Positions 12,549-64,000 of a DNA stretch of 64,000 bases are shown in pieces. Origin of the DNA: Trypanosoma brucei (Eukaryota); contig CP000070.1 of the NCBI GenBank assembly GCA_000002445.1, positions 288,001-352,000 on the forward strand. Direction: 5' to 3'. The notes beneath the pieces were generated by a model. It ran no database searches. It was not told the origin of the DNA and saw only the letters and a list, made by a program, of their open reading frames with translations. Both the position numbers and the translations under genes were made by a program. Numbering within the stretch: position 1 is the stretch's first letter; each line of letters opens with the position of its first letter.

Positions 12549-12619
12549 GCGCAGTTGGTCTAGTGGTAGAATTCTCGCCTGCCACGCGGGAGGCCCGGGT
12601 TCGATTCCCGGACTGCGCA
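12549..12619 (+). tRNA. tRNA-Gly (anticodon GCC)
   Basis: 71 nt. Acceptor stem GCGCAGT/ACTGCGC with discriminator A. A box TGGTCTAGTGG and B box GGTTCGATTCC. Anticodon loop CTGCCAC. Near-identical to the canonical eukaryotic tRNA-Gly-GCC body (TAGAATTCTCGCCTGCCACGCGGGAGGCCCGGGTTCGATTCCCGG). Confidence 0.92.
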
Positions 12620-12621
12620 CG

Positions 12622-12626
12622 TTTTT
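12622..12626 (+). terminator. T5 run immediately 3' of the tRNA (Pol III terminator)
   Basis: gTTTTTc two nucleotides after the discriminator base. Confidence 0.5.
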
Positions 12627-12937
12627 CTCCCATCTTGTCGTTTTGCATTTGGGTTCTTCCGGCCGAGGTGTTGTTAGCGACAGCGGGAGGGGAAGCAAAG
12701 AAAGTGGGAAAATGGAAAAAAAAAGAGGTGTATGAGTCATGCGCAAAGCGAAGGGATGGTGTGTTACCTCGGATATGTGTCCCGGTAACTGTTTTATTTC
12801 ACCCGAAATCACATACTTGATTTGTTTTCCACCATATGTTAGTTGTTGCGACTTTCCTTCTGGCTCCACCTCCTGATTAGTATCCAGTGTTTTTTTTTTT
12901 GCGGTAAAACATCGGAGTTTGGTGGCTCACCCACCGA

Positions 12938-37418: not shown

Positions 37419-38405
37419 ATGCAACGCCGCTTGCAGTGTTGTTTAATGCGTGTAGCGCGCTTACATTCGGCAGCATTGATGCATAATACAAATGGTTGGC
37501 TTATGATATCTTGCAGAACCGTACACATTACAGAGAGTGAGGCACAGTCGTTGGTACATTTGTCTGAGGCGCTTTTTTCTGATGAGGCAAATGCTCTGGG
37601 AGTATGTCTACCCGATACCAGCCTTAACCTTGACGGAGAAAGTGGGGAAGGGGATTTATATACTGAGACACTCACAACAGAGAAGTATATGGATGTGCTC
37701 GTTAGTTCACCAACACAAATAGATACGAGGGGAAATGTTTCTGCTTCATCAACGGATCTGATGATGCCGCTTACGCAAGCGGTGCAAGAACTGAAGTTAT
37801 GTCAGCAAAGAGAAGATCAGCGAGCCATTTCTGCAGCGCTTTCAACAGCCATGTGTGCGTTGATGGGAAGTAGTTCATCTCCTTCCAGTGCTGCTGCAGC
37901 TGAGTTATTGTTAGCCGGTGCAGACTTGAAAGCAATCATTTCTGATGGTACTATTCGACATATGTGCATTGAGGATAAATGCATGAGTCGATGTGATTTT
38001 TCCACTTTGTCACTACTTTCTGTACAGGCAAATCGCGTGGATTTCTCGCGCAGTCTCTTTTATGCTGCTGCCTTCCATAATTGTGTGTTTAGGAACTGCT
38101 CTTTTGAGGGGTGTGTACTGAAGGAACTCCGATGTTTAGGAGATGTGTGTTTTGATGGATGCTCCTTTTGTTTTGCGAACATATCGTTACGTATACCTCA
38201 TGAGAAACCGAGGCGTATTTCGGTATCTTCGGCTGCCACAGAAGGCGTGGGAAGGTATTCTGCGGAACATGCTGTGATATTTAACCGCTGTGATTTTGAC
38301 CTCTGTGATTTTGATGGTTGTGATACCCTTCCTGCATCTTGCTTTACGAACTGCACCAATACTCACCTCGCCGCCAAATTTTCGTCATGTGTGAGAACAT
38401 CATAA
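37419..38405 (+). CDS. Cys-rich pentapeptide-repeat-like protein, copy 1 (328 aa)
   Basis: C-terminal half has 5-residue periodicity with a central F/L and Cys at i-2: VDFSR SLFYA AAFHN CVFRN CSFEG CVLKE … VIFNR CDFDL CDFDG CD. The N-terminus is basic and Cys-rich. Confidence 0.7.
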   Translation: MQRRLQCCLMRVARLHSAALMHNTNGWLMISCRTVHITESEAQSLVHLSEALFSDEANALGVCLPDTSLNLDGESGEGDLYTETLTTEKYMDVLVSSPTQIDTRGNVSASSTDLMMPLTQAVQELKLCQQREDQRAISAALSTAMCALMGSSSSPSSAAAAELLLAGADLKAIISDGTIRHMCIEDKCMSRCDFSTLSLLSVQANRVDFSRSLFYAAAFHNCVFRNCSFEGCVLKELRCLGDVCFDGCSFCFANISLRIPHEKPRRISVSSAATEGVGRYSAEHAVIFNRCDFDLCDFDGCDTLPASCFTNCTNTHLAAKFSSCVRTS

Positions 38406-39526
38406 CTGTTGAAACTGCAAGATGAATGACACGAAATAAAGAAGCTTTCGGCTACTATTGGGTTGCCTTGCGTCTGTTTATTTGTTTCATTACTTGAACG
38501 CTTATGTCTGAAGAAGTGAAGGATGGGGTGGAATGTTAAAATGCAGACTAAAACTTTCCCCACGCGCTTAAATGCATTCACCATCAAGTGGGATCTGAAG
38601 GAATACTTATCATCCCCTTCAATTATTGGTACTCATCCATCAATACATGCAACCCAATCAGGTATTTACTCTCTGCTCCAAACAACAAGAATCAGTTACG
38701 TGCGTCATTGGATTTACACGTCCTCTCCTTTTTTTTTTCGTTCGTTTTCAAAATATTCATTTGAATGTGTTTTGACATTCTTCTGTATCATCATTACACT
38801 TTATCTGCAGCGATGAGGTTTGGGAAAAGGGAAAATGTACGAATGGCCGTGCGACTTGCTTCTTTCAGTTCCTTTAACCTTATTGAGTTTCCTTCATTGC
38901 TGTGTCGTGCTGTACACAACACTTTGTGTGCTGGTTGGAATTATGTGGGGATGTTTTTTTTTTTTGCATTTCCCTCTCCACACAGTAAGCCCCTCATCAT
39001 CATTTTCACATTTCTCATCAATCAACATTATAAATACCTGCCCATTGGGTTGTCTGTTACGTGATATGCGTGTAAAATATTCTGGTTCCTTCCTTTCGCA
39101 TGTTTCTGTGGATACTCGAATGTACATATATTTTTTCCTAATCATTTTCCATGCTATTTCTTCCCTATCACTCTTATGGGAAAGTTTGTTTGTCCTGTAC
39201 TTACGAAACCAAGCGCAAGTACATTAGTGTCATACCAATCAGAAAGGTTCGCAGTATTATTCTTATTCTTATTGTGCCCGTGGTATATATATATATATTT
39301 ATATATATACGTACATATATACACCTTTCTATTATTCTAGGTTGGTGCCTTTTTAAAAGTCTTCCCATTAGTTTTTTTTGTGAACATATCCCTATTACTA
39401 GCACTGCCACTGTTACTGTTTGGCTCCTTCTTTGAGTGAGCGCCTGCATCCATTTAAGTGTATATTTATTATTTTTTCGGAAACCACAACCAATTGAACG
39501 ACTACTAAAAGCAAACCAAACAAAAG

Positions 39527-40228
39527 ATGATGGAAAGTATGAACCTTGAACAACCACCACGACTAAACGCCGACCCCTGGCGAGATATGGAGCCAAAGGT
39601 GGATGCAATGCTAGGCGATCTACTCATGATATCTGAGCGTTTCCGAAGGATCGTAAATCCGACAGTGTCTGATGCAGATGAATTAATTGAAGCCATCAAC
39701 TCTGTGGGTGGAGAAGTTGAGACGATGCGGGTCGCTTTAGACACTACGATTGAGCGGCCGGAACTCTTTTCTGTAGATGCGGAAGAATTGAAAAGACGCA
39801 CGGAGAAAACTCGCTCGTGGGAGCGCGATGTTGCGAAAGCCATCGAGTTGCGATCAAAGATATTATCAAACCGTGAAGGGCAAATACAGGATCCACTTGA
39901 GAGTAACGTAATGACACCAAATACATGGGTTGATTTGGACACAACTCATATTCATCCATCAGCTCAGTCGTCGCATATGCCAATGAATAGTTGTGAAGCG
40001 ACTACTGACACATCTGTTGGTGTTGTTGAGTCTCAAGCTCTTATGCCAGTTGGAATACCCATACGTGAGCAAACAGTGAAGGCATCCGAATACTCAACCG
40101 CAAGTGTCGAGGTGCATACAGTGGATGATGTGGATGATCCCAATAATGAGGGATCTCTACTAAAGTACGTATTGGTTATCCTCTTAGTATCATCCATTCT
40201 TGTAGCAATATCGTTGATTTTCTTCTGA
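39527..40228 (+). CDS. tail-anchored membrane protein, copy 1 (233 aa)
   Basis: Soluble helical/acidic body with a single C-terminal hydrophobic segment LVILLVSSILVAISLIFF as the last residues. No signal peptide. Confidence 0.65.
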   Translation: MMESMNLEQPPRLNADPWRDMEPKVDAMLGDLLMISERFRRIVNPTVSDADELIEAINSVGGEVETMRVALDTTIERPELFSVDAEELKRRTEKTRSWERDVAKAIELRSKILSNREGQIQDPLESNVMTPNTWVDLDTTHIHPSAQSSHMPMNSCEATTDTSVGVVESQALMPVGIPIREQTVKASEYSTASVEVHTVDDVDDPNNEGSLLKYVLVILLVSSILVAISLIFF

Positions 40229-41640
40229 TTTTTTGATACTGAACTTTATCTCCTCTAATTGTTTCTTTTTGCGTGACTATCCTTCATCCTATGTTAAACG
40301 AAAGTAGGAGCTTATGTTTACGTATGTAGGTGCGCATTTTCTTTGTGGAAATATGTATGCATGCGTGTGGTTTTCTTTTTCATTAAAGCCTGCGAGGTGA
40401 ATGATGGAGTTTTGCTTCATATTTTATACAGAGATTGCTTAATTTGTCTTTCAGTTTCTAACTGTTTTTACCTTTTATTTCATTTATCGTAATGAAAGCC
40501 TACACTGAGCACAAGATACAAACAAGCGGTGTAGGGGAATGCTGCAAGTAACATTTGTAGTTTAAAAGTTATAACTGCAACTGAAAAGTCTCCCAATGGG
40601 CGCAGAAAGGTTTACAAACTTTACAGCTCTAAGAGCTTTCGCAGAAGCATATGCGCAAACGATTTTGTCGCCCAATATTTGGTGCTGGTACGTTACATGT
40701 GAAAAGTTCAATGATATCTGAAGTAAGGGAAATGACATCCGTATTTCTCTCGGATGGGGGGGGGGGGAAAGAAGCTTGGTTTCACATGTTCGGGTTAATC
40801 CTTGATATCCTTCAGCGTAATAAGACATAAATTCATCCTCAGCTCTGTCGAACAGGCGCGAGCGAAGGTTTTGGAATGAATGTTGGGCTCTCACGTAATG
40901 CAACCCCAATCCTTTTCAACGTTGCAAAATGACTTAAGGACAACTGCTTTGATAAAGATGGGGTATACACGAAAACTCACTGTTGAAGCGGGAACACAGG
41001 CATTTGATTAAAAGATAGTTAAGAATGATGAAAGGCGACAACTATAAAATGCAGGAAAATATTATGTTAGCCGCGGGAGCAGGTTTAATGAAGGGCGATC
41101 GAGTAACATAAATGGAAAACAGCGGCGAGTACATGGACCACTTAAATAAATGACAAAAGTGCAGCACCTTGCGCAATTGAAAGAGATGCTTTGTGGGAAT
41201 CGTTGCGTCTCTCACTTTGTTTTTTATTTTTATTTACTACTCTTTTTTTTTTTTTGAGAAGGCGTGTATTTCGAAGGAGGATAAATAGAAGTGATGAATA
41301 TTTCAAATATCTCCTTGTATGTATATATATATATATGCGGTTTACTTTAATAGTTCCTTCACTTGCTGTCCCCTCCCCCCTCTCTCTCTCTTTCTCTCTA
41401 TTCTTTCCGTTTATTTGTATTAACTTTTTGTGTTTCCGTAGTCTTATGATTAGACGTGTGTTCAAATAAACACGCAAGTGGTAACGTTGCATTCTACAAT
41501 ATTTCTGCTTTTGTGCACCTTTTATGGTACAGGTGTTGCTGAAGGTGCATAATAGAAGTACGGCCCACCATCATCACCACGTACGGTTTTCGTGATTCTG
41601 CGACTGGTGTCAACAAAAGGGAAGGGTACTCGAGGAGGAA

Positions 41641-42627
41641 ATGCAACGCCGCTTGCAGTGTTGTTTAATGCGTGTAGCGCGCTTACATTCGGCAGCATTG
41701 ATGCATAATACAAATGGTTGGCTTATGATATCTTGCAGAACCGTACGCATTACAGAGAGTGAGGCACAGTCGTTGGTACATTTGTCTGAGGCGCTTTTTT
41801 CTGATGAGGCAAATGCTCTGGGAGTATGTCTACCCGATACCAGCCTTAACCTTGACGGAGAAAGTGGGGAAGGGGATTTATATACTGAGACACTCACAAC
41901 AGAGAAGTATATGGATGTGCTCGTTAGTTCACCAACACAAATAGATACGAGGGGAAATGTTTCTGCTTCATCAACGGATCTGATGATGCCGCTTACGCAA
42001 GCGGTGCAAGAACTGAAGTTATGTCAGCAAAGAGAAGATCAGCGAGCCATTTCTGCAGCGCTTTCAACAGCCATGTGTGCGTTGATGGGAAGTAGTTCAT
42101 CTCCTTCCAGTGCTGCTGCAGCTGAGTTATTGTTAGCCGGTGCAGACTTGAAAGCAATCATTTCTGATGGTACTATTCGACATATGTGCATTGAGGATAA
42201 ATGCATGAGTCGATGTGATTTTTCCACTTTGTCACTACTTTCTGTACAGGCAAATCGCGTGGATTTCTCGCGCAGTCTCTTTTATGCTGCTGCCTTCCAT
42301 AATTGTGTGTTTAGGAACTGCTCTTTTGAGGGGTGTGTACTGAAGGAACTCCGATGTTTAGGAGATGTGTGTTTTGATGGATGCTCCTTTTGTTTTGCGA
42401 ACATATCGTTACGTATACCTCATGAGAAACCGAGGCGTATTTCGGTATCTTCGGCTGCCACAGAAGGCGTGGGAAGGTATTCTGCGGAACATGCTGTGAT
42501 ATTTAACCGCTGTGATTTTGACCTCTGTGATTTTGATGGTTGTGATACCCTTCCTGCATCTTGCTTTACGAACTGCACCAATACTCACCTCGCCGCCAAA
42601 TTTTCGTCATGTGTGAGAACATCATAA
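41641..42627 (+). CDS. Cys-rich pentapeptide-repeat-like protein, copy 2 (328 aa; one aa difference from copy 1: H36R)
   Basis: Same as copy 1. Confidence 0.7.
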   Translation: MQRRLQCCLMRVARLHSAALMHNTNGWLMISCRTVRITESEAQSLVHLSEALFSDEANALGVCLPDTSLNLDGESGEGDLYTETLTTEKYMDVLVSSPTQIDTRGNVSASSTDLMMPLTQAVQELKLCQQREDQRAISAALSTAMCALMGSSSSPSSAAAAELLLAGADLKAIISDGTIRHMCIEDKCMSRCDFSTLSLLSVQANRVDFSRSLFYAAAFHNCVFRNCSFEGCVLKELRCLGDVCFDGCSFCFANISLRIPHEKPRRISVSSAATEGVGRYSAEHAVIFNRCDFDLCDFDGCDTLPASCFTNCTNTHLAAKFSSCVRTS

Positions 42628-43745
42628 CTGTTGAAACTGCAAGATGAATGACACGAAATAAAGAAGCTTTCGGCTACTATTGGGTTGCCTTGCGTCTGTT
42701 TATTTGTTTCATTACTTGAACGCTTATGTCTGAAGAAGTGAAGGATGGGGTGGAATGTTAAAATGCAGACTAAAACTTTCCCCACGCGCTTAAATGCATT
42801 CACCATCAAGTGGGATCTGAAGGAATACTTATCATCCCCTTCAATTATTGGTACTCATCCATCAATACATGCAACCCAATCAGGTATTTACTCTCTGCTC
42901 CAAACAACAAGAATCAGTTACGTGCGTCATTGGATTTACACGTCCTCTCCTTTTTTTTTCGTTCGTTTTCAAAATATTCATTTGAATGTGTTTTGACATT
43001 CTTCTGTATCATCATTACACTTTATCTGCAGCGATGAGGATTGGGAAAAGGGAAAATGTACGAATGGCCGTGCGACTTGCTTCTTTCAGTTCCTTTAACC
43101 TTATTGAGTTTCCTTCATTGCTGTGTCGTGCTGTACACAACACTTTGTGTGCTGGTTGGAATTATGTGGGGATGTTTTTTTTTTTTGCATTTCCCTCTCC
43201 ACACAGTAAGCCCCTCATCATCATTTTCACATTTCTCATCAATCAACATTATAAATACCTGCCCATTGGGTTGTCTGTTACGTGATATGCGTGTAAAATA
43301 TTCTGGTTCCTTCCTTTCGCATGTTTCTGTGGATACTCGAATGTACATATATTTTTTCCTAATCATTTTCCATGCTATTTCTTCCCTATCACTCTCATGG
43401 GAAAGTTTGTTTGTCCTGTACTTACGAAACCAAGCGCAAGTACATTAGTGTCATACCAATCAGAAAGGTTCGCAGTATTATTCTTATTCTTATTGTGCCC
43501 GTGATATTTATATATATTTATATATATACGTACATATATACACCTTTCTATTATTCTAGGTTGGTGCCTTTTTAAAAGTCTTCCCATTAGTTTTTTTTGT
43601 GAACATATCCCTATTACTAGCACTGCCACTGTTACTGTTTGGCTCCTTCTTTGAGTGAGCGCCTGCATCCATTTAAGTGTATATTTATTATTTTTTCGGA
43701 AACCACAACCAATTGAACGACTACTAAAGGCAAACCAAACAAAAG

Positions 43746-44447
43746 ATGATGGAAAGTATGAACCTTGAACAACCACCACGACTAAACGCCGACCCCTGGC
43801 GAGATATGGAGCCAAAGGTGGATGCAATGCTAGGCGATCTACTCATGATATCTGAGCGTTTCCGAAGGATCGTAAATCCGACAGTGTCTGATGCAGATGA
43901 ATTAATTGAAGCCATCAACTCTGTGGGTGGAGAAGTTGAGACGATGCGGGTCGCTTTAGACACTACGATTGAGCGGCCGGAACTCTTTTCTGTAGATGCG
44001 GAAGAATTGAAAAGACGCACGGAGAAAACTCGCTCGTGGGAGCGCGATGTTGCGAAAGCCATCGAGTTGCGATCAAAGATATTATCAAACCGTGAAGGGC
44101 AAATACAGGATCCACTTGAGAGTAACGTAATGACACCAAATACATGGGTTGATTTGGACACAACTCATATCCATCCATCAGCTCAGTCGTCGCATATGCC
44201 AATGAATAGTTGTGAAGCGACTACTGACACATCTGTTGGTGTTGTTGAGTCTCAAGCTCTTATGCCAGTTGGAATACCCATACGTGAGCAAACAGTGAAG
44301 GCATCCGAATACTCAACCGCAAGTGTCGAGGTGCATACAGTGGATGATGTGGATGATAGTAGGAGCTCTAATTCTGCTAAGAAGACGGTCTTGATTATAT
44401 TTTTTGCATCGTCTCTTCTTGTGGCTATACTGGTGATTTTCTTTTGA
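43746..44447 (+). CDS. tail-anchored membrane protein, copy 2 (233 aa; divergent C-terminal 28 residues)
   Basis: Identical to copy 1 up to …TVDDVDD, then SRSSNSAKKTVLIIFFASSLLVAILVIFF versus PNNEGSLLKYVLVILLVSSILVAISLIFF. Same length. Confidence 0.65.
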   Translation: MMESMNLEQPPRLNADPWRDMEPKVDAMLGDLLMISERFRRIVNPTVSDADELIEAINSVGGEVETMRVALDTTIERPELFSVDAEELKRRTEKTRSWERDVAKAIELRSKILSNREGQIQDPLESNVMTPNTWVDLDTTHIHPSAQSSHMPMNSCEATTDTSVGVVESQALMPVGIPIREQTVKASEYSTASVEVHTVDDVDDSRSSNSAKKTVLIIFFASSLLVAILVIFF

Positions 44448-52766: not shown

Positions 52767-53385
52767 TTACTGCAGCGTGTGACGGTGTGCAACATGAGAA
52801 CCGATGCTGTTGTTTAATCCACTGAGGGGCGCAGCCAAGGATAAGCATTCCTATATATATATATATATATCATTATATGTAATGCATACACATGTTTCAA
52901 TCACTGCTGAGTCCTTCGGCATCTCTTTTTCACCTTTCGCTTATCATTTGCACGCCCTCTTCTTCATTCCGTTTTCACTCCCTCTCCTCTTGCCCCCGGG
53001 AGAATCCCCTCCGTTTTGTTGTTGTTTCCGTCTATACTTGCTCGGTCAAATAGGGAAACTAACAAGAAAGTGGCACTTATAGGGGTTGAGCTCCTCTTAT
53101 CAGGCTCCCTGATGGCAGCAGCGGTGATCAAAATTGTCACTTCTGTCTTTAGCATTTTGTTATTTTTATGCATTGCATATTGTTTTTCTTCTTGAAAGGT
53201 ATATATGTGTACATATGTTTGTATTATTATTGTTATTATCACTTATCGCATTCCCTTTTACTGTGTTCAAGGTTCTATACGCTACAAGTAAAGTTTTTTT
53301 TTCTCAAGGGCAGGGCAGCCACCAGATAAAGGAAGGGAAGTAATCTGCTTATTTGAATCGAACAACAAAAGCTATAAAAAGAGCA

Positions 53386-53787
53386 GCTAATTACAGGCAG
53401 TTCCGCTTACGACTAAGCAGATTTCATTCAGCAACTAAAGCAACACAGGTATGCTCCGCGTTTCCATTCCCGCACTCAAGACGCTGCAGCCTCTGGGCTC
53501 GCGTGTGCTGGTGAGACGCACTCTGGCAGCCAAGCAAACAAAGGCCGGTGTGCTCATCCCCGAGCAAGTTGCTGGTAAAGTCAACGAGGGTACCGTTGTC
53601 GCTGTGGCGGCTGCAACAAAGGACTGGACACCGAGTGTGAAGGTTAATGACACTGTGCTACTTCCTGAGTTTGGTGGAAGCAGTATTAAGCTGGAAGGAG
53701 AGGAACTGTTCCTCTACAACGAAGACTCGTTGCTTGGTGTTATCCAGAATTGAAGGGTGGACAGTAACCGCTAACGTGCATCACGTC
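53386..53787 (+). repeat. HSP10 cassette duplication, copy 1 (CDS plus 65 bp 5' and 34 bp 3' flank)
   Basis: Identical to 55583..55984. Confidence 0.9.
53451..53753 (+). CDS. HSP10: 10 kDa chaperonin (HSP10/CPN10, GroES family), copy 1
   Basis: 100 aa. Mobile loop AAKQTKAGVLIPE, roof/hairpin region and LFLYNEDSLLGVI end match the GroES/CPN10 family. Confidence 0.9.
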   Translation: MLRVSIPALKTLQPLGSRVLVRRTLAAKQTKAGVLIPEQVAGKVNEGTVVAVAAATKDWTPSVKVNDTVLLPEFGGSSIKLEGEELFLYNEDSLLGVIQN

Positions 53788-54228
53788 ATTCTCTGGTGGC
53801 ACTTTGTTCCCCTCTCGTGTCCTACACGCTCCGCTTCCAGCCTGGTCTGTTTCATTGCTGCGTAAAGGGTGAGAAGCCGTGATAGCGCGAGGAGTGGGGA
53901 ATGGAGTGCATGCCACACTTCTATTTCTATTTACACTTTTATTTTTTTTATTTTAATATTACATCATCGAATTTGTCGGACACCTTCCTTGATTTAGTTT
54001 GTGTGAACCACCGTAGTTGCTTTTTTTTTAAAAAAAAAGAAGGCAACCCTGCCATCCACAATTGCAGTCGCACATATTTTCACTACCATTCTTTTTTATT
54101 CCTTCCCACGGGGGTGGAGTGTGCTAAGTTGTGTGTGTAACATTTAAAATAGCACCGCGCATTCGTACACGGGAAACCTCAAAGGGTCCGTAAAGCAAAA
54201 GAAGAGGAAAAGAAAGAATCACGCGGGC

Positions 54229-55296
54229 ATGTTTTGTGACGCTGAAGATGGGGCTGCCATAGTTTCTCATATTCCAATAAGTCCTTTTGTCCCAATACAA
54301 CACAATAATATTGATGTCTCCGCTGTGAATCGCCTTGCAAACTTCGCCATTCGCTTCGCCAGGGAACACGGCTGGTGTTCCAGTCACCCTTTCAAGATGA
54401 GCTCGGGCCCCAAAATTGGAGAGAATAAAGGCGAGAGCAATGAACTTGATGATATCACTGTTTTCTATGCGGGTGTGGAGGTTGAGCTTGCCGAAGAAAC
54501 CCCGAAGTTCAAAAGAGAGGGCACTCCTGCGTCTCTCTTTCTCTATGCACAGTTATGGCTCTCACATGTAGGTGTGAGCAGCAATGGCCTGTGTGGCAAA
54601 CTCTTTAGCTTCAAGAAGGATGAGGAGGATTGCAGGGAGTTTCTGGGTTCGTTCAAGCTCACAGGCGTTACCGTGTCAAGAACGACTCGTAAACCCACGC
54701 CTATTCCCGCGCCGCGACTCGAAATGATGCGTTCTTTGATCGCAAAAAACACAGCGGCATCGGAGCTGCCCAGGGTTGAGCGTATTAACTTCTCACAGCT
54801 CAACGAGCGGTGCCGTTTCGCTTCTGTCCGCTCCCACGAGGAATTTGCGTGTGCACTTCCATCGCACCCGGCCGTGGCTCCGCTGAAAGTTGGGTACCGC
54901 CGTGAGTTTCACCTGAGAGAAACCGATTTCGATTTTAACAGGCACGTAAACCAGGTTGTAACCATCACAATGGTCATCAACACCTTTCGAGCTGCTTTGG
55001 GTGACAACACAACCATTTTCCCGCGCTTGTTAGATACCGATGTCCACCCTCTGGATGGCGATTTGCTCATCCGAAGGCTACGCATTGACTACGTTCGGGA
55101 GGTACCTGCTGACCACGCCGCCATGGCAGTAATGTTATTCTTTCAAGATGATGTCTCAATGGATAATGTCATTGCGTCTTCCACAAATTCGAGAAAAAAA
55201 TCCCTTACTGAACTTTGGTTTATTGTGCAGGGAATCCCGGCCGCTGAGACCAATCCATTTGTCTCCGCGGTTGGTAAGGTGCTTTTGCGGTGCTGA
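54229..55296 (+). CDS. hotdog-fold acyl-ACP-thioesterase-like protein (355 aa)
   Basis: C-terminal hotdog with ETDFDFNRHVNQVVTITMV (D.N.HVNN-type motif) and …RRLRIDYVREV as in the PF01643-type thioesterases. The N-terminal half is not assigned. Confidence 0.45.
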   Translation: MFCDAEDGAAIVSHIPISPFVPIQHNNIDVSAVNRLANFAIRFAREHGWCSSHPFKMSSGPKIGENKGESNELDDITVFYAGVEVELAEETPKFKREGTPASLFLYAQLWLSHVGVSSNGLCGKLFSFKKDEEDCREFLGSFKLTGVTVSRTTRKPTPIPAPRLEMMRSLIAKNTAASELPRVERINFSQLNERCRFASVRSHEEFACALPSHPAVAPLKVGYRREFHLRETDFDFNRHVNQVVTITMVINTFRAALGDNTTIFPRLLDTDVHPLDGDLLIRRLRIDYVREVPADHAAMAVMLFFQDDVSMDNVIASSTNSRKKSLTELWFIVQGIPAAETNPFVSAVGKVLLRC

Positions 55297-55582
55297 CGAG
55301 ATATACCCCGGTGAAACACCTTAAATGTGTTCCCCGTTTAAGGACTTCGACGCCCATGCTAAGGGGAGATAAGTTTATTAAAATGAAACATCGTTGAAAC
55401 ACAGGGGGGAAACAAGGCAAAAATTGGAAAGAAAATATACTTTGTGAAGTTCACACCCACGTGCTCTGTTGGTCGAACTGGACCCAAACCGTAATTGCAC
55501 TCTGCCTTTCCCCACCTTTGCATGCCCGAATTAATGTACATTTCTCGCTTTCCTTTCTTTACAAGTAACCAGTGACCCAGAA

Positions 55583-55984
55583 GCTAATTACAGGCAGTTC
55601 CGCTTACGACTAAGCAGATTTCATTCAGCAACTAAAGCAACACAGGTATGCTCCGCGTTTCCATTCCCGCACTCAAGACGCTGCAGCCTCTGGGCTCGCG
55701 TGTGCTGGTGAGACGCACTCTGGCAGCCAAGCAAACAAAGGCCGGTGTGCTCATCCCCGAGCAAGTTGCTGGTAAAGTCAACGAGGGTACCGTTGTCGCT
55801 GTGGCGGCTGCAACAAAGGACTGGACACCGAGTGTGAAGGTTAATGACACTGTGCTACTTCCTGAGTTTGGTGGAAGCAGTATTAAGCTGGAAGGAGAGG
55901 AACTGTTCCTCTACAACGAAGACTCGTTGCTTGGTGTTATCCAGAATTGAAGGGTGGACAGTAACCGCTAACGTGCATCACGTC
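55583..55984 (+). repeat. HSP10 cassette duplication, copy 2
   Basis: Identical to copy 1, period 2197 bp. Confidence 0.9.
55648..55950 (+). CDS. HSP10: 10 kDa chaperonin (HSP10/CPN10), copy 2
   Basis: 100% identical ORF to 53451..53753. Confidence 0.9.
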   Translation: MLRVSIPALKTLQPLGSRVLVRRTLAAKQTKAGVLIPEQVAGKVNEGTVVAVAAATKDWTPSVKVNDTVLLPEFGGSSIKLEGEELFLYNEDSLLGVIQN

Positions 55985-57534: not shown

Positions 57535-57939
57535 GGGCGCCCGTAGCACCATACAAAGAGGAACGAGAGCGTAATACCGATGCAAAGCGCCTTTGCGGCA
57601 CTGGGAAGAAAACAAGGTGATCACGGGCAGCTTGGATGGCCGTATTGAAGGAGGGGAGAGGTGAGGAATGCCCTTCGTCTCGTTGTACGGATAAGTGACG
57701 TAGTGCCACAGAGCAACCGATTCAATTTTCACGTGCGGGGGCGGACCAGCTTCCGCTCTTGCGTGGTGGTGTCCAAAACACTTTGTCTTGTCATTCCTGC
57801 GCCCCCCCCCCCCCCCCACACACACCCATTTATCCTTTGCGGGTCCCCCTTTTTCTCCCACGGTAGACGGGCGAGCGATACCAGTTTAGCCTATTTAACG
57901 TTATTTTTCCCGATAGGACCACCCGCCCCTTCTCGCTTA

Positions 57940-59040
57940 ATGCCTGAGCAGTTGGGCGCGGAGGCACCGCAGCACGTTGTCCCAGAGGGGGACCAGAGCG
58001 CAGGATCTGAAGCCGGGAATGTCACGAGGGGAACCAAAAACCACGATGACAGCGATCCTTTTGTCTCACTCCGGCACATGGAAGACCGGAAGCAACTCGA
58101 GACACAGGCGCGCGCTGTCGTAACGGCGTTACTTGCAGAGAAAGGCGAGGTGTACGTGCAAGGACTTCTTCAAGCAGAAATACAGCGGGTGAAGAAAAAG
58201 GAATCGGAAGCGGCGGCGATAAAAAAGAAGATTTCAGCAGCCACCAAATTGGCGGGAGAGCTGAAGGGGGATATCCGGCGGGAGACTGAGGCAAAGGCAG
58301 AAGAGGAGCATATGTGCAAAAACCTCCAAGCGGAGATGAAACGACGAAGCACACTCACAGAGGAAGCTACCAGAAGGATGGAAAGCCGCCGGCTCACCCT
58401 CAAGAAAGATGTGGAAACCAGCGTCCGGGACGTGCGGGAGAAGTATGACGATCGCAAGCGGCAGGCGATGGAATTAGTAGAGGAGAACAAGCGCCTTACT
58501 GATGAAGTGGCCAAGATGAGGAAAGAGTTCGACGAGGCTCGCGCAACATACGCTGACACCTGCAAGGAACGCGAAACCTATGTGGAATCTCTGATACGTT
58601 CCTACCGTGAGGTGACGAGGGAGGTGGAAACGCTGGAGGCTAAGATAGCCCTTGTGCGCCGCGAGCGGCAGGCATCAGAGCAGCGAAAAGCCTCTCTGGA
58701 AAAGCAGTTGGAGTCGTACAACTCACAATTTGGCTCCTTGTCAGAGGGACAATCCGTTGAGGATGCGGAAAGGATGGCTAAGGAGCAGCGTGAGGAGGCG
58801 GAGGCGAGAATAGCTCAATTAGAAAGTGAAAAGAAAGAGGCCAGTGAGATTCGACTCAGACTTGACAAGGAGACTGCGACGTGGCGTGCAGCACTAGCGG
58901 CTCATAAGCGTGAGCTTCCGAGGTTGGAGAAAGCCAAGCTGGCAGCAGAAAAGAGATGCAGACAAGCACAGGAGAGGGCAAGGCAACAGCTGAAGGAGGA
59001 TGCCACAACAACAAAAGACCAAGAGGATGGCGGCATGTAG
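57940..59040 (+). CDS. coiled-coil protein (367 aa from MPEQLG; ORF opens at 57661)
   Basis: About 300 aa of uninterrupted K/E/R-rich heptad-like sequence. The upstream part of the ORF runs through a C15 homopolymer and T/C tracts, so it is treated as 5' UTR. Confidence 0.55.
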   Translation: MPEQLGAEAPQHVVPEGDQSAGSEAGNVTRGTKNHDDSDPFVSLRHMEDRKQLETQARAVVTALLAEKGEVYVQGLLQAEIQRVKKKESEAAAIKKKISAATKLAGELKGDIRRETEAKAEEEHMCKNLQAEMKRRSTLTEEATRRMESRRLTLKKDVETSVRDVREKYDDRKRQAMELVEENKRLTDEVAKMRKEFDEARATYADTCKERETYVESLIRSYREVTREVETLEAKIALVRRERQASEQRKASLEKQLESYNSQFGSLSEGQSVEDAERMAKEQREEAEARIAQLESEKKEASEIRLRLDKETATWRAALAAHKRELPRLEKAKLAAEKRCRQAQERARQQLKEDATTTKDQEDGGM

Positions 59041-62000
59041 AAAACAGCCTCGCTGTACTATTGAGTGGCAACCTTTTCCGCTCTTTCCATCTGCTTTCCC
59101 AGGAAACGCGCGGCTGCATGTGTCGACTTCCTCTTGTATTGTGTCTGTCATACTGTTCTTCCCGCCCTACGGCGTGCAAGCACGTAGGGTTTCCTTACCC
59201 ATCTACTGTTGTGCTAGACTTCGCTTTCCCGATTCTCCTCTCTCCGAATACTCTCTTATTTCTTTTTTTTTTCTGCAGTGAAGGGGAGGTAAGAAACGGG
59301 AAGAAAAAGGTGTAGCTCGGATGTGGGAGTTGCGGTGCCGTGACCCCTCCGCCGCAACACGTATATGACTCCTTACGAAGCAGTCGGCATGGTTTATTCC
59401 TTTTTTTTTTTTGCCAACCGATGGTAGAGAATGGTGATAATAGGAGCTTAGAAGGACAGTGTCCAGCTTTATGCACCCTACTCCATTATATTCAGCATTC
59501 CACATGGCAGACCTTTGAGCACCCGTGCCACGCATCCCTTCAACTGGGGAAGAATCGAAACATTAAACCGCTGCCGCCTTGTTTCCCTCACCGACCCTTC
59601 TCCTCCAGTGCGCAGTTAGTGGTGCATCGGCGTGTTCGCTCAAGGTGGCTCCTAGTCGTTATTCCCACTCAGTCAGTTGGGCCGAGAAGTCTGTCGTTTC
59701 CTGTAGGAAAATATGCCATGAAGGCCCTGGCGATGCCGGCCACCTCAACGTGGTGCCAGGGTCCAGTTCCCCGTATCATCGGGGGAAGCCAAGAGCCAGC
59801 AGAGTTCCTTTCATGGGGAACACTGCTGTGCTCCGGCTAAGGCATCATACAGCACAGGGATCAGCAGCGTCTTGCTGGGACACCGTTTTTCATTTGTCGG
59901 TCCCTGGGAAAAAAAAAATGCCATGAAGGGGTCGGCCTCGCTTACCAGTGACGGGGCGTCGTATCAATCTTTGAAGTCCACGGGAAAAGCGTTATCCAAC
60001 GCTGCCGCCGTCCAAATTATAGCTGGGACTGAGGGACGATATATCTCGCTTCCGCTCCATCAGCTGTCGCCCCTTGCGGTCCATTACGGCTACGTATTTC
60101 GCCTCCCTACTGAAGAAACGCCTCCTCAAGCCTGCTCCAACCCCTTCTGTTTCCTCCGGCTCCTTGTAATATCTATCACCTCCCCCCCCCACACACACGC
60201 ACCCACCGCCGTTCCCGCTGAATAACTTTCCTCTCGCTTCTATTAACATGGCGCGTGCAGACGCTTCAAATAGGGAGCCTTTGACTATGGGAACGCTCGT
60301 CGCTGGTATCCTCAACCCATTTTTTCCCGACGCTTTTTGCGTACGTATCCGATGGCGTCTGCGGCCGCCGCCATTTCGCACGTGGGCAACTCTCTTTTAC
60401 GCCTAAGCAATGGTGGATGGCGGACCCTTCATGGATGCTGATTTCGGTAATGCTCAGCTATTCTCCGTGACAGATGGCTCGGGGGTATCACCTCTATTTA
60501 CGCTCCTAGAAACTATTTTCGTCGGTAATGCCTTCCTCAGATCTGTGAAGGTCGTCCTGTCCGTCGGACTGCAAAACCAATTCGTTTTGTCTGCGGGTGC
60601 CAGCCGTTCTGTTGTCAAGATTTTGACGGTGATTCCGCGACGTTTTCCCTTTGGATTGTTTTTGGCGCCATCTAACCCACTACAGATGTAATGGCATCGT
60701 TGGTGTTTTCGACTGCCATCGACACGTATCTTTACCTATTTGCGGAGCTCAGGTGCGCAATGTTTTGGTGAATTCGGACATTCCACAATTCTTTTCATAT
60801 CCCTTTATAATGCTACATTGAGCAATATCCAACTACAATATCTTCTAAAGTTTCGTATCATTTTCCAAGATGTTACATCGCTGTGCGTAGAACTGGTAAC
60901 TTCTTTTGAAAGCAGTGCGCCTCTGAATGATGTATATCAAGTTGGAACTTCATTGTTGGTAACTGTTAAACTCTTTTCCATCTATCAATCCAATATCAGC
61001 GTCATCACCCTTCTCTTCTGGAATGCGGGTGTCTCAACCAACGTAATGTTGTCTTACGTCGGCCCCAACGGCTACTGAGTCTTGATCCTCGCTCAGTCGC
61101 TACAACGTTCCAGGGGTTGCGTCGGAGTTTCCGGGAGAAATGAGTAGAGGTTGGGGGGGGGGGGGCTATTCGCCATTTTTAAACAGTGGTGTAGCGGCCG
61201 CACTATCCGCAACTCCATTTATCTTTAGACGCCTGGCCACGCCTATCTTGCTCCAAATGATTATTTTGCATGATGCCGCTCTTGGAGGGACGCACCGTTC
61301 CAATGCGTCGGTTTTTTCATACGTGTGTGTGTGCTCGATCTCTCTGGGGTGTGAGTTTGTTTTCCCGTTTCACGATGCACCAGCCGATCCGGCATTCGGG
61401 AGGTCGCCCGATCACGACATGTTCGCGCAGCTGGGAGAAGCCAAGATCGATTCAGTCCCTTCCGCGTAAAAGTGGGTTTAGGTCCCGTACGGCATTCCCC
61501 TTTGGCTTAAGCATCAATTTTGTGGTGTCCGGCGAGGCGCCCCTACGTGTTCCACGGGGTGAAGCTGCTTTGTCGCGCTAGAAGTCCCATGACACCGCCA
61601 GGCGACCGAGCTCCGTCAGCTGCCAAAACTTCCGTGCTGCCTGATGTTCGAAGGGTAGAATGCGCGAGCCACCTGGCTTTGATCTCCTTTCCCTGCGGCG
61701 AACCGGATCCCTGCGCAACGATGGACTGAGCGGTACCATCGCATGGGTTGGGTGGGGGGTCCTCGTATATATACGTATGTGCATATGTTGTGGCCGCGGG
61801 GGTGTTCTCCTTATCGTCCGTGTCGGCTGCGGTATCCCTGGGTTAGTTCTTCTATGTGCCACGGTTCCCTCTCCCCTAGGGGCATTCCTGGCGTCTATTG
61901 GGGATGGGGCGTTTGTTGGTGTTGAGGGGCTTCTGCGGGGTCATTGGATAATGTCTGAAAGGTATGGTTGTTTCAGGTTCGCGCTCAGGGGGTACGGATG

Positions 62001-62606
62001 GTGCGCGTATGCGGATTACCTTTGTGTGTGCTTGTGCTTCCACTCTGCTCTGCTGCTTAGAACTGGTAGTTGTCAACAAGGGTAGATTTTGTTGCGTCTG
62101 TTCCATCGTAAGCTAGTAGCTGTTTTCCCGCCCCTTGCTAGTTGCTTCATGATAATACAGGGTTGTGGTCATTCTTCTACGTAACAGCGAGCGCTCCGTA
62201 AGCGGGATCGAATATATTTCCCGCTGTTATTTGTTACCGATTTTCAGGGTGTGCCACTTCGGTTCTGCAAGTGGGATGAACTCACGTCAGCGTCCTGTAT
62301 CTTGCAAGCGGCAGGAGACGTGTGGGTGAGCAGAACCTAAACGAGTAAACTTGATTTTGAGGGATGATAGGAAAGATTTTCACGTGGAAACCGTCCCATG
62401 AAATTGATGTGAGCTGCTTTTTATTATATTTCTTGAACTTTGGTGACATCTATCCACTTTATTCTCAATCATGTGTTTCATATCTACATAGGATAAGATG
62501 AGAAGTAGTGCTAATTTTTTTTTAGCGAATAGTAGTAGCGGCGGACTTTCGAAATATCGCCCCCGATTTCGGCCGAGAAGACTTGTGCTGCCGGTAAATC
62601 CTTCTG
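59041..62606. other. 3.5 kb ORF-poor interval inside a same-strand gene cluster
   Basis: No ORF longer than 170 aa. Six consecutive + strand ORFs of 93-166 aa in frames 0,1,2,2,0,1. G13, C9 and (CA)n tracts. GC-richer than neighbouring spacers. Confidence 0.5.
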
Positions 62607-64000
62607 ATGTGCATAGCATTAGTCGAGCGAATAATCCCATGTACGCGAAATATCAAGAGGGTATTCGATTGAGAAGGAGGGCGGAGCGCCGCGGTGTAAT
62701 TGCACTTTCTTTCGTTCCGTCTGAACGCAGCGTGGGTGATGCTTTTCGGATTATGGTTGAGGTGTGTGAAAAGGAGGGGTTCTTCGAGTCAAAGTCGTCC
62801 ACACCAAATTATCTCCGTAAAGTACGTGAATTAATCAAGCGCGCTGAGACGGAATTAGGGACCGGGGAAAGAGTCAAAAATACGTCCGCGAACCCATCTT
62901 TTTACGACATTGGCTTGTCAGAAGCGAGGGATTTATCAAGAAACGCAGATAAATCACGTCATGCTGAGGGCAATATCGAAACGAGGGAGATAGACTCACT
63001 GTGGAGTCTACTAAATGCTACTCCACTTGATTCCCCCGTTCATGGGATTTTGGCCTTGAGGGGAAAGGCCCTCCTTGAAAGTATAATTGCTAACACCGTA
63101 CAACAACAATATCCACGGCTGCGGTCAAAGCACTTGCAGGAAATCATACATGAGTGTTGTAGTCTTTTGGCATGTGGAAGAGCCGCGTTCCGTCTGGGAT
63201 TCGCTGACGTTTGTGGAATTAATGGGGAGATAAACATGTGGCGTGAACTCAATGTCCTCACTGAGAGGTTCAATACCGCACGACATAAGGCTGCTGCTCA
63301 CCTCCAACGTGTGGAGAAAGGAGTGACACAACAAAGACGATGGTATTGGAGGGGCGTTCTCAGGTCTTCATCTAAGCGATTGAAACAGTTCCCTGTACGT
63401 CAAGGTGATTTACTCCCCCGAATGGAGTGGATAAGGGAGTCTGTGTACGCGTTCGTTGCCTTTGTGGATCTGGCAGAAAAATCAGGTGACAATGTCCGTG
63501 TAGTGCCACTGATTGAAAATCTGTTCTGTGGTCAAATATCCTCGTTTGTAAGCACCAACCAGACACTTAAGAAGGCGCATAGGATGGTTGATATGCTGTC
63601 AAAAGCAAGAATTGAATGTGATGCCACAACGGAAAAAGAGAAAATACAACAATTAGAGTCTCTTTCTACTGACATTGAAAATGAGCTTGCCGCCCTCGAA
63701 CAATTCACTGATGACGAGTTAGGAGTTATGAGCCGTGTCGTTCATCCGCTTAATGCTCGGAGCGACAACCGGAAAGAGCAGTTTTCGTCCAGTGGTGGTG
63801 CCCATGCGGTGCAAAGTCTTAGGGATGACATCTTCGACGATTACCGGGTAACTCGTCACAACAAAGAGGCGCCCCCTATGGTGATCAACTGTATGCGCCC
63901 ACAAAATGCTCTGAAAGAGGCTCAAATCATTCTCCGCTACGATCCGAATGTGTCAGAAACATTGTCGTCATCTCCTATAGATGTCGACCAGGTGATCCGA
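62607..64000 (+). CDS. hypothetical protein, 3'-truncated by the window edge (at least 464 aa)
   Basis: A TAA at 62595 closes the frame upstream. ATGs at 62607 and 62640, and the frame stays open to position 64000. The antisense ORFs in the interval are all shorter than 80 aa. Confidence 0.55.

What the first reader, a model, noticed from the sequence alone, without database searches (positions are those of the whole stretch)
59041..62606. 3.5 kb ORF-poor interval with a chain of frame-shifting short ORFs and long homopolymers
All other spacers in the window are 0.4-2.3 kb. This one is 3.5 kb and GC-richer. It contains six back-to-back + strand ORFs (93-166 aa) that step through frames 0,1,2,2,0,1. 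That pattern is what a decayed or frameshifted gene (or a degenerate retroelement remnant of the ingi/DIRE kind) looks like in a six-frame view. G13 (61153-61165) and C-rich/CA tracts are present. Alternatively it could be an unusually long UTR or hold a non-coding RNA locus.
Basis: seen in the sequence. Interest (0 to 1): 0.5.

Follow-up and report, generated by a model that had tools for sequence, protein, structure and literature searches.

The report
Orphan transcript with a RIME stub
The 3.5 kb gap is a Trypanosoma brucei-specific stretch that makes its own rare, apparently non-coding RNA and carries a recently inserted 193-bp fragment of the RIME mobile element; both were already catalogued, so it is ordinary.

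Summary
The window is T. brucei TREU927 chromosome 7, 288,001-352,000. The interval 59041-62498 lies between Tb927.7.1360 (PFR-AF2) and Tb927.7.1370. It is the longest spacer in the window and as GC-rich as coding sequence. It holds the six ORFs in frames 0,1,2,2,0,1 and a G13 run.

It is not a decayed gene or a DIRE. No frame hits Pfam. There is no period-3 signal and no similarity to the syntenic spacers of five other trypanosomes. Strains differ by frame-breaking indels.

Two things are there, both already published. (1) Kolev et al. 2010 list a trans-spliced, polyadenylated transcript, Tb7.NT.9, at window 59279-62371, with about 0.5 RNAs per cell. Its 5' end sits exactly after the AG that follows a polypyrimidine tract. 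(2) A 193-bp RIME stub (RIME nt 1-184/186 plus a poly(A) tail) lies at 59725-59917. It has a perfect 12-bp target-site duplication and is listed by Khan et al. 2015.

New here: the stub is a presence/absence polymorphism. T. b. gambiense and one T. b. equiperdum strain have clean empty sites. Its 205 bp cause the first frame step, splitting an 'unlikely' 200-aa ORF. Low interest.

The parts
59041..59278 (+). Tail of the Tb927.7.1360 (PFR-AF2) transcription unit. It holds the short 3' UTR, then the polypyrimidine tract 59256-59276 and the AG acceptor at 59277-59278.
   Evidence: Read directly from the sequence. The tract is repeated at 59394-59414 (families D1/D4). The 5' end of Tb7.NT.9 maps to the first base after this AG. 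[quoted passage not shown]
59279..62371 (+). Tb7.NT.9: an independent trans-spliced, polyadenylated 3,092-nt transcript of low abundance with no conserved ORF.
   Evidence: Kolev et al. 2010, Table S7: Tb927_07_v4, 347279-350371, + strand, 0.53 RNAs per cell. The offset of 288,000 was verified with the Tb927.7.1350 poly(A) site and with the RIME row of Khan 2015. Tb7.NT.9 is absent from Kolev Tables S8-S11, which list conserved ORFs, MS peptides and transcripts with no ORF.
59713..59724 (+). Left copy of the 12-bp target-site duplication, ATGCCATGAAGG.
   Evidence: Exact direct repeat with 59918-59929 (family D5). It is present once in the empty sites of L008 and L009.
59725..59917 (+). 3'-truncated TbRIME/ingi stub: RIME nt 1-184/186 followed directly by A9-10. 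Positions 59725-59801 are the Pr77 (79-bp) signature of the ingi clade.
   Evidence: 98.4% identical over 184 nt to the 5' ends of two full-length 504-bp RIMEs. Khan 2015 list it as NC_007280 347725-347908, 'RIME A', element 1-184, 3' truncated. It is absent from T. b. gambiense DAL972 and T. b. equiperdum IVM-t1 and present in T. equiperdum OVI.
59918..59929 (+). Right copy of the 12-bp target-site duplication.
59340..60225 (+). Two reader ORFs (59340-59840 and 59872-60225). They are the halves of one ORF split by the RIME stub. Without the stub it is 234 codons stop-to-stop, or 200 aa from its ATG.
   Evidence: Removing 59725-59929 restores a single ORF. The intact form is annotated in T. 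b. gambiense as CBH12159.1, 'hypothetical protein, unlikely', a singleton cluster. Five of the 6 differences from T. b. gambiense are non-synonymous, and the C-run near its end varies by +1, +2 and +3 nt among strains.
60182..60190 (+). C9 run followed by (CA)n; its length varies between strains.
   Evidence: C9 in the window, with C10, C12 and C11 in L001, L008 and L009.
60410..61078 (+). Two same-frame ORFs separated by one stop, in a lower-GC, T-rich patch. This was the best pseudogene candidate, and it was rejected.
   Evidence: An exhaustive phmmer search of 60410-60688 against 1.84 billion representatives found only the same T. brucei ORF (P0031) and one spurious repeat protein. There is no Pfam hit. 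Period-3 signal is in the spacer range.
61153..61165 (+). G13 run; its length varies between strains.
   Evidence: G13 in the window, 3 more G in T. b. gambiense and 4 fewer in T. b. equiperdum IVM-t1. The run lies inside ORF 61140-61469, so that frame is not kept between strains.
61660..62085 (+).
   Evidence: The equivalent ORF is annotated in T. b. gambiense as CBH12160.1, 'hypothetical protein, unlikely', a singleton cluster. No Pfam hit.
62372..62498 (+). Spacer between the Tb7.NT.9 poly(A) site and the Tb927.7.1370 ATG. It has a pyrimidine-rich stretch and AG acceptors.
   Evidence: Sequence and poly(A) site. The splice site of Tb927.7.1370 was not found in the held supplements, so its position is inferred.

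Best explanation
The interval is a T. brucei-lineage-specific, non-conserved segment of a Pol II polycistron. It is processed into its own RNA and is best read as a long non-coding or 'orphan' transcript.

Processing. Read-through transcription from Tb927.7.1360 (PFR-AF2) meets a polypyrimidine tract at 59256-59276 and an AG at 59277-78. The spliced leader is added at 59279, and this coupled event polyadenylates the PFR-AF2 mRNA a little upstream. The 3.1-kb RNA, Tb7.NT.9, is polyadenylated at 62371, coupled to trans-splicing of Tb927.7.1370. It is rare, at about 0.5 copies per procyclic cell.

The retroposon. A truncated RIME/ingi RNA (nt 1-184/186 plus a poly(A) tail) was inserted into this unit by target-primed reverse transcription using Tbingi-encoded enzymes. 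The target carries the ingi4 recognition motif, and the insertion made a 12-bp duplication. This happened recently enough that T. brucei strains are still polymorphic for it.

The ORF chain. It is what CDS-like GC content (few stops) yields by chance, plus one frame break made by the 205-bp insertion.

Shown: the sequence anatomy, the empty sites, the identity to RIME, the lack of coding signals, and the published transcript ends. Inferred: the coupling to neighbouring mRNA processing, which enzymes mobilised the stub, how the stub came to be truncated, and that the RNA has no function of its own.
For: Identity of the locus: the taxilin-like protein is identical to TREU927 XP_845760.1. Coordinates are tied to chr7.

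Transcript: Tb7.NT.9 is at 347279-350371, + strand, 0.53 RNAs per cell. The authors state that the novel transcripts are trans-spliced and polyadenylated. Its 5' end equals the first base after polyY+AG.

Retroposon: Pr77 match; perfect 12-nt TSD; 98.4% identity to RIME nt 1-184; clean empty sites in L008 and L009. The target matches 7 of the 10 specified positions of the ingi4 signature quoted in PMC3820030, including GTxGG at -10 to -6. The same core precedes two full-length RIMEs.

Non-coding: no Pfam hit in 6 frames and no Rfam hit at E<=1. No blastn or tblastx hit to the syntenic loci of T. congolense, T. cruzi, T. theileri or T. melophagium, whose spacers (where the next gene is present) are 0.2-0.6 kb. 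Divergence from T. b. gambiense is 1.26%, like other spacers (0.7-1.3%) and about twice that of CDS. Period-3 power has a median near 1, against 0.9 for spacers and 3.2 for CDS. Indels that are not multiples of 3 lie inside the ORFs.
Against: GC content equals that of CDS, and the count of ORFs of at least 90 codons is about 2 sd above shuffles. Two 450-nt windows (60241-60690 and 60991-61440) have period-3 power of 2.3-2.7, just above the spacer 90th percentile.

The codon-usage score discriminates poorly here; the real downstream gene scores near 0. The syn/non-syn counts (11:18, against 27:28 in real CDS) have too little power to decide.

The broad homology search with all + strand ORFs was a false negative, because it missed known near-identical proteins. 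Remote homology was therefore properly tested for only one ORF.

The RNA-seq comes from procyclic T. b. rhodesiense YTat1.1 mapped onto TREU927. I could not inspect the reads, other life stages or ribosome profiling.
Confidence: 0.8

Rival explanations
1. The interval is a decayed, frameshifted protein-coding gene (a unitary pseudogene), and the six ORFs are its surviving pieces.
For: There is an excess of long ORFs on the + strand (9 against 4.5, p about 0.02). GC is CDS-like. ORFs 60410-60691 and 60740-61078 share a frame and are separated by a single stop. T. b. gambiense annotators called two ORFs here. One frame step is a true insertion-induced frameshift.
Against: No Pfam domain in any frame. 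There is no homologue of the best-scoring ORF among 1.84 billion representatives apart from itself. tblastx against the syntenic regions of five species finds nothing, and T. cruzi, T. theileri and T. melophagium have no room for a gene there (0.2-0.6 kb spacers). Period-3 signal and SNP density match spacers. The minus strand shows a similar ORF excess, which points to composition rather than coding. Both T. b. gambiense ORFs are labelled 'unlikely' and are singleton clusters.
Confidence: 0.07
2. The whole interval is a degenerate long ingi-clade retroelement (a DIRE), and the Pr77-bearing piece is its 5' end.
For: A genuine Pr77 signature is present on the + strand. The length downstream of it, about 2.7 kb, is compatible with a truncated DIRE.
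Against: The Pr77 piece ends in its own poly(A) tail and TSD after 193 bp. It is missing as a clean 205-bp unit from two strains that keep all the flanking 3.25 kb. It is therefore a separate and younger insertion. There are no RT, endonuclease or RNase H matches in any frame. RIME similarity stops at nt 184.
Confidence: 0.03
3. The interval is mainly an unusually long UTR, either an alternative long 3' UTR of PFR-AF2 or a long 5' UTR of Tb927.7.1370. On this view the 'separate transcript' is a minor processing isoform.
For: T. brucei 3' UTRs reach about 6 kb, and 394 genes have alternative 3' UTR processing that yields UTR-internal transcripts. Tb7.NT.9 is rare (0.53 per cell). I could not retrieve the poly(A) site of Tb927.7.1360 or the splice site of Tb927.7.1370.
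Against: Kolev et al. list it among novel stand-alone transcripts (Table S7), not among genes with alternative UTR processing (Table S3, file 19), which has no entry for .1360 or .1370. A strong polyY+AG signal lies 238 nt after the stop codon, exactly at the mapped 5' end.
Confidence: 0.08

Closest known systems
TbRIME, the non-autonomous partner of the Tbingi non-LTR retroposon (ingi4 subclade) of T. brucei
   Same: It has the same first 184-186 nt, including the Pr77/79-bp signature (98.4% identity). It has a poly(A) tail, an exact 12-bp TSD and the GTxGG-containing target motif upstream.
   Different: It is only 193 bp instead of about 500 bp. The whole 3' half of RIME (the ingi 3' end) and nt 187-250 are missing, so it is a 3'-truncated stub. 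Non-LTR copies are more usually 5'-truncated. In the Khan 2015 table, truncation at nt 184 occurs only at this locus, so it is a solitary copy and not a subfamily.
Novel SL-spliced, polyadenylated transcripts and lncRNAs of T. brucei (Kolev et al. 2010 Tb*.NT.* set; Guegan et al. 2022 lncRNA catalogue)
   Same: It lies between protein-coding genes in a polycistron, has its own splice-acceptor and poly(A) sites, is low in abundance and has no conserved ORF. It is itself a listed member, Tb7.NT.9.
   Different: At 3.1 kb it is at the long end of that set. No function, stage regulation or structure is known for it. I could not check whether it appears in the 2022 lncRNA catalogue, because no supplement is held.
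SIDER/TSIDER short degenerate retroposons in trypanosomatid 3' UTRs
   Same: It is a short Pr77-bearing element sitting inside a transcribed non-coding region, in sense orientation.
   Different: SIDERs are about 570 bp, old and degenerate (median 16% from consensus), and share only the signature with ingi. This stub is 98% identical to RIME well beyond the signature and is polymorphic between strains.
TbDIRE (degenerate ingi/L1Tc-related elements)
   Same: It belongs to the same clade and carries the same 5' signature.
   Different: DIREs are about 5 kb and keep recognisable RT and endonuclease remnants. None is detectable here.

Membership tests
TbRIME / Tbingi (ingi4 subclade retroposon) | Conserved 76-79 nt 5' signature (Pr77) | tested here: met
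   Positions 59725-59801 carry it. A 43-nt core matches exactly once in the window, with 0 matches expected. There is 1 mismatch (A44T) to two full RIMEs across the signature.
TbRIME / Tbingi (ingi4 subclade retroposon) | 3' poly(A) stretch and a 12-bp target-site duplication | tested here: met
   A9-10 at 59909-59917/18. ATGCCATGAAGG lies at 59713-24 and 59918-29 with 12/12 identity. The 12-bp size is the clade hallmark according to PMC3820030.
TbRIME / Tbingi (ingi4 subclade retroposon) | ingi4 target motif AxxxxxxxTxxxGTxGGxTxxx^xTxTxxTxxxxx upstream of and within the TSD | tested here: met
   Seven of 10 specified positions match: T-14, G-10, T-9, G-7, G-6, and TSD T2 and T7. A-22, T-4 and TSD T4 do not match. 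The ingi6 motif (TTTTxxxxxA^A) is not matched. Based on the sequence and the motif quoted. Two full RIMEs show the same GT(A/G)GG core.
TbRIME / Tbingi (ingi4 subclade retroposon) | Canonical RIME architecture: about 250 nt of the ingi 5' end joined to about 250 nt of the ingi 3' end (about 500 bp) | tested here: not met
   Only RIME nt 1-184 (186 in the OVI copy) are present. The poly(A) tail follows directly. It is therefore a truncated derivative, not a canonical RIME.
TbRIME / Tbingi (ingi4 subclade retroposon) | Evidence of mobility: an orthologous empty site | tested here: met
   T. b. gambiense DAL972 (L008) and T. b. equiperdum IVM-t1 (L009) have a single ATGCCATGAAGG and lack exactly 205 bp.
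DIRE / autonomous ingi remnant | Recognisable endonuclease, reverse-transcriptase or RNase H coding remnants over kilobases | tested here: not met
   All six frames of 59041-62498 were scanned against Pfam-A at E<=1, with 0 families found.
T. brucei processed Pol II transcript (mRNA-like or lncRNA) | Spliced-leader acceptor site preceded by a polypyrimidine tract | tested here: met
   The polyY tract 59256-59276 and the AG at 59277-78 are visible in the sequence. The published 5' end, 347279, equals 59279. I did not see the SL reads themselves.
T. brucei processed Pol II transcript (mRNA-like or lncRNA) | Mapped poly(A) site and measurable steady-state RNA | not testable with these tools
   Taken from Kolev 2010 Table S7: 3' end at 350371 (= 62371) and 0.53 RNAs per cell. 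No expression data can be analysed here.
Protein-coding gene or pseudogene | Homology, codon periodicity or a conserved reading frame | tested here: not met
   No Pfam hit. No tblastx hit to syntenic loci. Only one ORF was searched exhaustively, and it was negative. Period-3 power matches spacers. Frames are broken by strain indels. The chimeric search was uninformative.
Known structured RNA families (snoRNA, HDV-like ribozyme and others in Rfam 15) | Covariance-model match | tested here: not met
   No match at E<=1 in 58900-62700. The only gathering-level hit in the window is tRNA-Gly at 12549. The L1Tc/ingi ribozyme may not be an Rfam family, so its absence says little about Pr77 ribozyme activity.

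The most novel reading that the evidence does not exclude
Tb7.NT.9 could be a functional, T. brucei-lineage-specific gene: a regulatory lncRNA or a de novo protein. Its longest ORF (200 aa) is intact in T. b. gambiense and T. b. equiperdum IVM-t1. In TREU927 and T. equiperdum OVI it has been knocked out by a segregating RIME stub. That stub also brings a Pr77 internal promoter and HDV-like ribozyme into the transcript. Strains would then differ in processing or RNAi targeting of this RNA, and possibly in expression of the downstream Tb927.7.1370. The 13-fold excess divergence inside the stub would reflect ongoing ectopic conversion or targeted mutation of retroposon copies.
Probability: 0.06. 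Interest if true: 0.45.

Novelty: already known. Interest (0 to 1): 0.14.

Why it matters
It matters little beyond annotation. The case shows that a CDS-like GC content and a staircase of ORFs in a trypanosome spacer need not mean a dead gene. Here they mark one of the roughly 1,100 orphan processed transcripts already mapped in T. brucei.

The RIME stub has some use in two ways:
- It is a clean presence/absence marker. It is filled in TREU927 and T. equiperdum OVI, and empty in T. b. gambiense DAL972 and T. b. equiperdum IVM-t1. That could help in strain or lineage typing.
- It is a natural example of an ingi-clade copy that kept only the 5' 184 nt plus a poly(A) tail. This is compatible with the published idea that the Pr77 end, rather than the 3' end, is what the ingi machinery recognises.

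Tried and rejected
1. snoRNA, tRNA or other known structured RNA. Rfam was run at gathering threshold on the whole window and at E<=1 on the interval, and ARAGORN was run as well. Nothing was found in the interval.

2. Pfam on a six-frame translation, with stops replaced by X. Nothing was found.

3. A frameshift-tolerant search by concatenating all + strand ORFs.
- In the search for homologous proteins it returned nothing. That is a false negative, because the near-identical T. b. gambiense proteins are in the collection. I discard this result.

4. An exhaustive phmmer search of the best-scoring ORF, 60410-60688. It returned only itself and a spurious tandem-repeat protein.

5. Codon-usage log-likelihood. 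It discriminates too weakly, since a real gene scores about 0.

6. Syn/non-syn counts. They have too little power.

7. Similarity of the interval to the rest of the window or to the flanks of other RIMEs. None was found.

8. A shared expansion in T. congolense.
- The contig has 4.75 kb downstream of the orthologue with no Tb927.7.1370 orthologue and no similarity to the interval, so this is inconclusive.

9. The 'long' T. cruzi spacer in L003 is a run of N, not an insertion.

10. The C9...G13 inverted pair about 960 nt apart (pairs I7-I13). I treated it as chance. Both runs vary in length independently among strains.

11. The supplements of the lncRNA catalogues are not held (Guegan 2022 and the polysome study). 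The nanopore lncRNA list shows no entry at these gene ids.
Full report
WHERE THE WINDOW COMES FROM

The 366-aa coiled-coil (taxilin-like) protein encoded at 57940-59040 is identical to T. brucei brucei TREU927 XP_845760.1. It differs by 1-4 residues from the T. equiperdum, T. b. gambiense and T. b. equiperdum orthologues.

Two published tables fix the coordinates.
- Khan et al. 2015 (PMC4660242, suppl. 1) list a RIME fragment at NC_007280 347725-347908. Its 100-nt upstream sequence is identical to window 59625-59724.
- Kolev et al. 2010 (PMC2936537, Table S13) put the Tb927.7.1350 poly(A) site at 345,723 with a 189-nt 3' UTR. That equals window 57534+189.

The window is therefore chr7 288,001-352,000. 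The upstream gene is Tb927.7.1360, named PFR-AF2 in PMC7272336. The downstream 605-aa gene is Tb927.7.1370.

THE OBSERVATION

It is accurate.
- The interval runs from 59041 to 62498 (3458 bp).
- The six ORFs and their 0,1,2,2,0,1 frame pattern exist.
- G13 is at 61153-61165 and C9 plus (CA)n at 60182-60199.
- It is the longest spacer in the window. Its GC is 0.511, against 0.434 for the other spacers and 0.510 for CDS.

Statistically the ORF chain is only a mild excess. There are 9 + strand stop-to-stop ORFs of at least 90 codons, against 4.5 +/- 1.8 in dinucleotide shuffles (p about 0.02). The minus strand shows a similar excess (6 against 2.8). The longest ORF is unremarkable. Long homopolymers are typical of all spacers here, with 50 runs of at least 8 nt in the window and G10-G13 runs in three other spacers.

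NOT A DEAD GENE AND NOT A DIRE

- All six frames of the interval give no Pfam match at E<=1. Rfam gives none at E<=1.
- The syntenic loci of T. cruzi (three strains), T. theileri and T. melophagium have the same gene order, but only 0.2-0.6 kb lies between the two genes. An apparent 1.6-kb T. cruzi spacer is a run of N.
- Neither blastn nor tblastx finds any similarity between the interval and those loci, or a T. congolense contig.
- Within the T. brucei group the interval diverges like other spacers: 1.26% from T. b. gambiense, against 0.7-1.3% for spacers and about 0.6% for CDS.
- Its period-3 power (median near 1) matches spacers (0.9), not CDS (3.2).
- Strains differ by indels that break the ORFs. 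These are a 2-bp deletion at 61323-24 and length changes of the G and C runs.
- The ORF with the best codon score, 60410-60688, has no relative among 1.84 billion representative proteins except itself.
- The two ORFs that T. b. gambiense annotators called here are labelled 'hypothetical protein, unlikely' and are singleton clusters.

One caveat applies. My single-shot search with all + strand ORFs concatenated missed even those near-identical proteins, so it is void. Remote homology was properly tested for one ORF only.

WHAT IS THERE, PART 1: A TRANSCRIPT

Reading the sequence, a strong polypyrimidine tract (59256-59276) followed by AG (59277-78) lies 238 nt after the PFR-AF2 stop codon. A near-copy of the tract lies at 59394-59414.

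Kolev et al. list a novel transcript, Tb7.NT.9, at chr7 347,279-350,371. It is on the + strand, 3,092 nt long, at 0.53 RNAs per cell. The authors state that these novel transcripts are trans-spliced and polyadenylated. In window coordinates it spans 59279-62371, so its 5' end is exactly the first base after that AG.

Tb7.NT.9 is absent from their tables of transcripts with conserved ORFs, with MS peptides, or with no ORF at all. The interval is therefore not simply the 3' UTR of the coiled-coil gene. It is an independently processed, rare RNA with no conserved coding capacity.

WHAT IS THERE, PART 2: A RETROPOSON STUB

Positions 59725-59917 begin with the Pr77/79-bp signature of ingi-clade retroposons. 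They run 98.4% identical to the first 184 nt of two full-length 504-bp RIMEs that I recovered from T. b. gambiense. They then end directly in A9-10.

The stub is flanked by a perfect 12-bp duplication, ATGCCATGAAGG. This is the TSD length characteristic of the clade (PMC3820030). The target matches 7 of 10 specified positions of the Tbingi/TbRIME (ingi4) insertion motif, including GTAGG at -10 to -6. The two full RIMEs have the same core.

T. b. gambiense DAL972 and T. b. equiperdum IVM-t1 have clean empty sites with one copy of the 12-mer and exactly 205 bp missing. T. equiperdum OVI has the insertion. It is thus a recent, segregating retroposition event.

The 205 bp shift the frame by +1 and bring a stop codon. 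One of the five frame steps is therefore truly retroelement-made, and the others are not. The element is already listed as a 3'-truncated 'RIME A' (1-184) by Khan et al. No other copy in their table ends at 184, so it is a solitary copy.

MECHANISM (INFERRED)

Pol II reads through the cluster. SL addition at 59279 is coupled to polyadenylation of PFR-AF2 mRNA upstream. Polyadenylation at 62371 is coupled to trans-splicing of Tb927.7.1370.

The stub arose by target-primed reverse transcription by Tbingi enzymes. There are three possible routes, and I cannot distinguish them:
- the template was a prematurely polyadenylated or cleaved RIME/ingi RNA;
- the reverse transcriptase jumped from the tail to nt 186;
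- a later deletion removed nt 187 to the tail.

Published work assigns promoter and HDV-like ribozyme activity to Pr77 (PMC4035085, PMC4748587). Whether this copy, which carries an A44T change, does anything is untested. Its first 37 nt can form the expected hairpin, but the fold is not better than shuffles (z = -1.1).

UNEXPLAINED

The stub plus TSD differs at 8 of 205 positions between TREU927 and T. equiperdum OVI. The rest of the interval differs at 10 of about 3250 (Fisher p = 3.5e-6). Each copy has about 4 private changes, mostly G/C to A/T, relative to full RIMEs. Ectopic conversion, polishing errors in a repeat, or local hypermutation are all possible.

VERDICT

The content is ordinary and already catalogued. 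The only small additions are the strain polymorphism with its empty sites, the link between the insertion and the first frame step, and the exact polyY-AG match to the published 5' end.

Noticed in passing
window 59713-59917 vs L001 11775-11981: The RIME stub and its TSD are 3.9% diverged between TREU927 and T. equiperdum OVI, while the flanks differ by about 0.3%, a 13-fold excess (p = 3.5e-6). Each copy has about 4 private changes, mostly G/C to A/T, relative to full-length RIMEs.
   Followed up: partly
window 37419-40228 and 41641-44447: There is a tandem duplication of a gene pair (328 aa + 233 aa) in a low-GC (about 0.40) block. Kolev's novel transcript Tb7.NT.8 (window 40499-41304) lies between the copies, next to a G12 run at 40756.
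   Followed up: no
window 12549-12620: A tRNA-Gly(GCC) gene on the + strand lies inside a polycistron and inside Kolev's 'novel transcript' Tb7.NT.6 (window 11944-12810).
   Followed up: no
window 52767-55950 vs L001 7029-8548: T. equiperdum OVI lacks the 355-aa gene (window 54229-55296) and one of the two Cpn10 copies that TREU927, T. b. gambiense and T. b. equiperdum IVM-t1 have. This is either a copy-number difference or a collapsed tandem repeat in that assembly. T. cruzi strains also vary in the number of Cpn10/357-aa units (2-4).
   Followed up: no
window 57802-57817: A C16 run, the longest homopolymer in the window, sits about 120 nt upstream of the PFR-AF2 start codon. In contrast, all G runs of at least 10 nt (20382, 29503, 40756, 61153) are on the + strand in spacers.
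   Followed up: no
L002 1653-6402 (T. congolense IL3000 contig CAEQ01000701.1): The 4.75 kb downstream of the taxilin-like orthologue contains no orthologue of Tb927.7.1370 (tblastn at E<=10 finds nothing, and there are no N runs). It holds only an annotated 164-aa ORF. Either the spacer is also expanded in T. congolense or synteny breaks there.
   Followed up: partly
tool behaviour: A 1001-aa chimeric query of ORFs joined by X runs returned no hits in the search for homologous proteins, although two near-identical proteins (CBH12159.1 and CBH12160.1) are in the collection. Long composite queries can give false negatives in the word-index step.
   Followed up: yes
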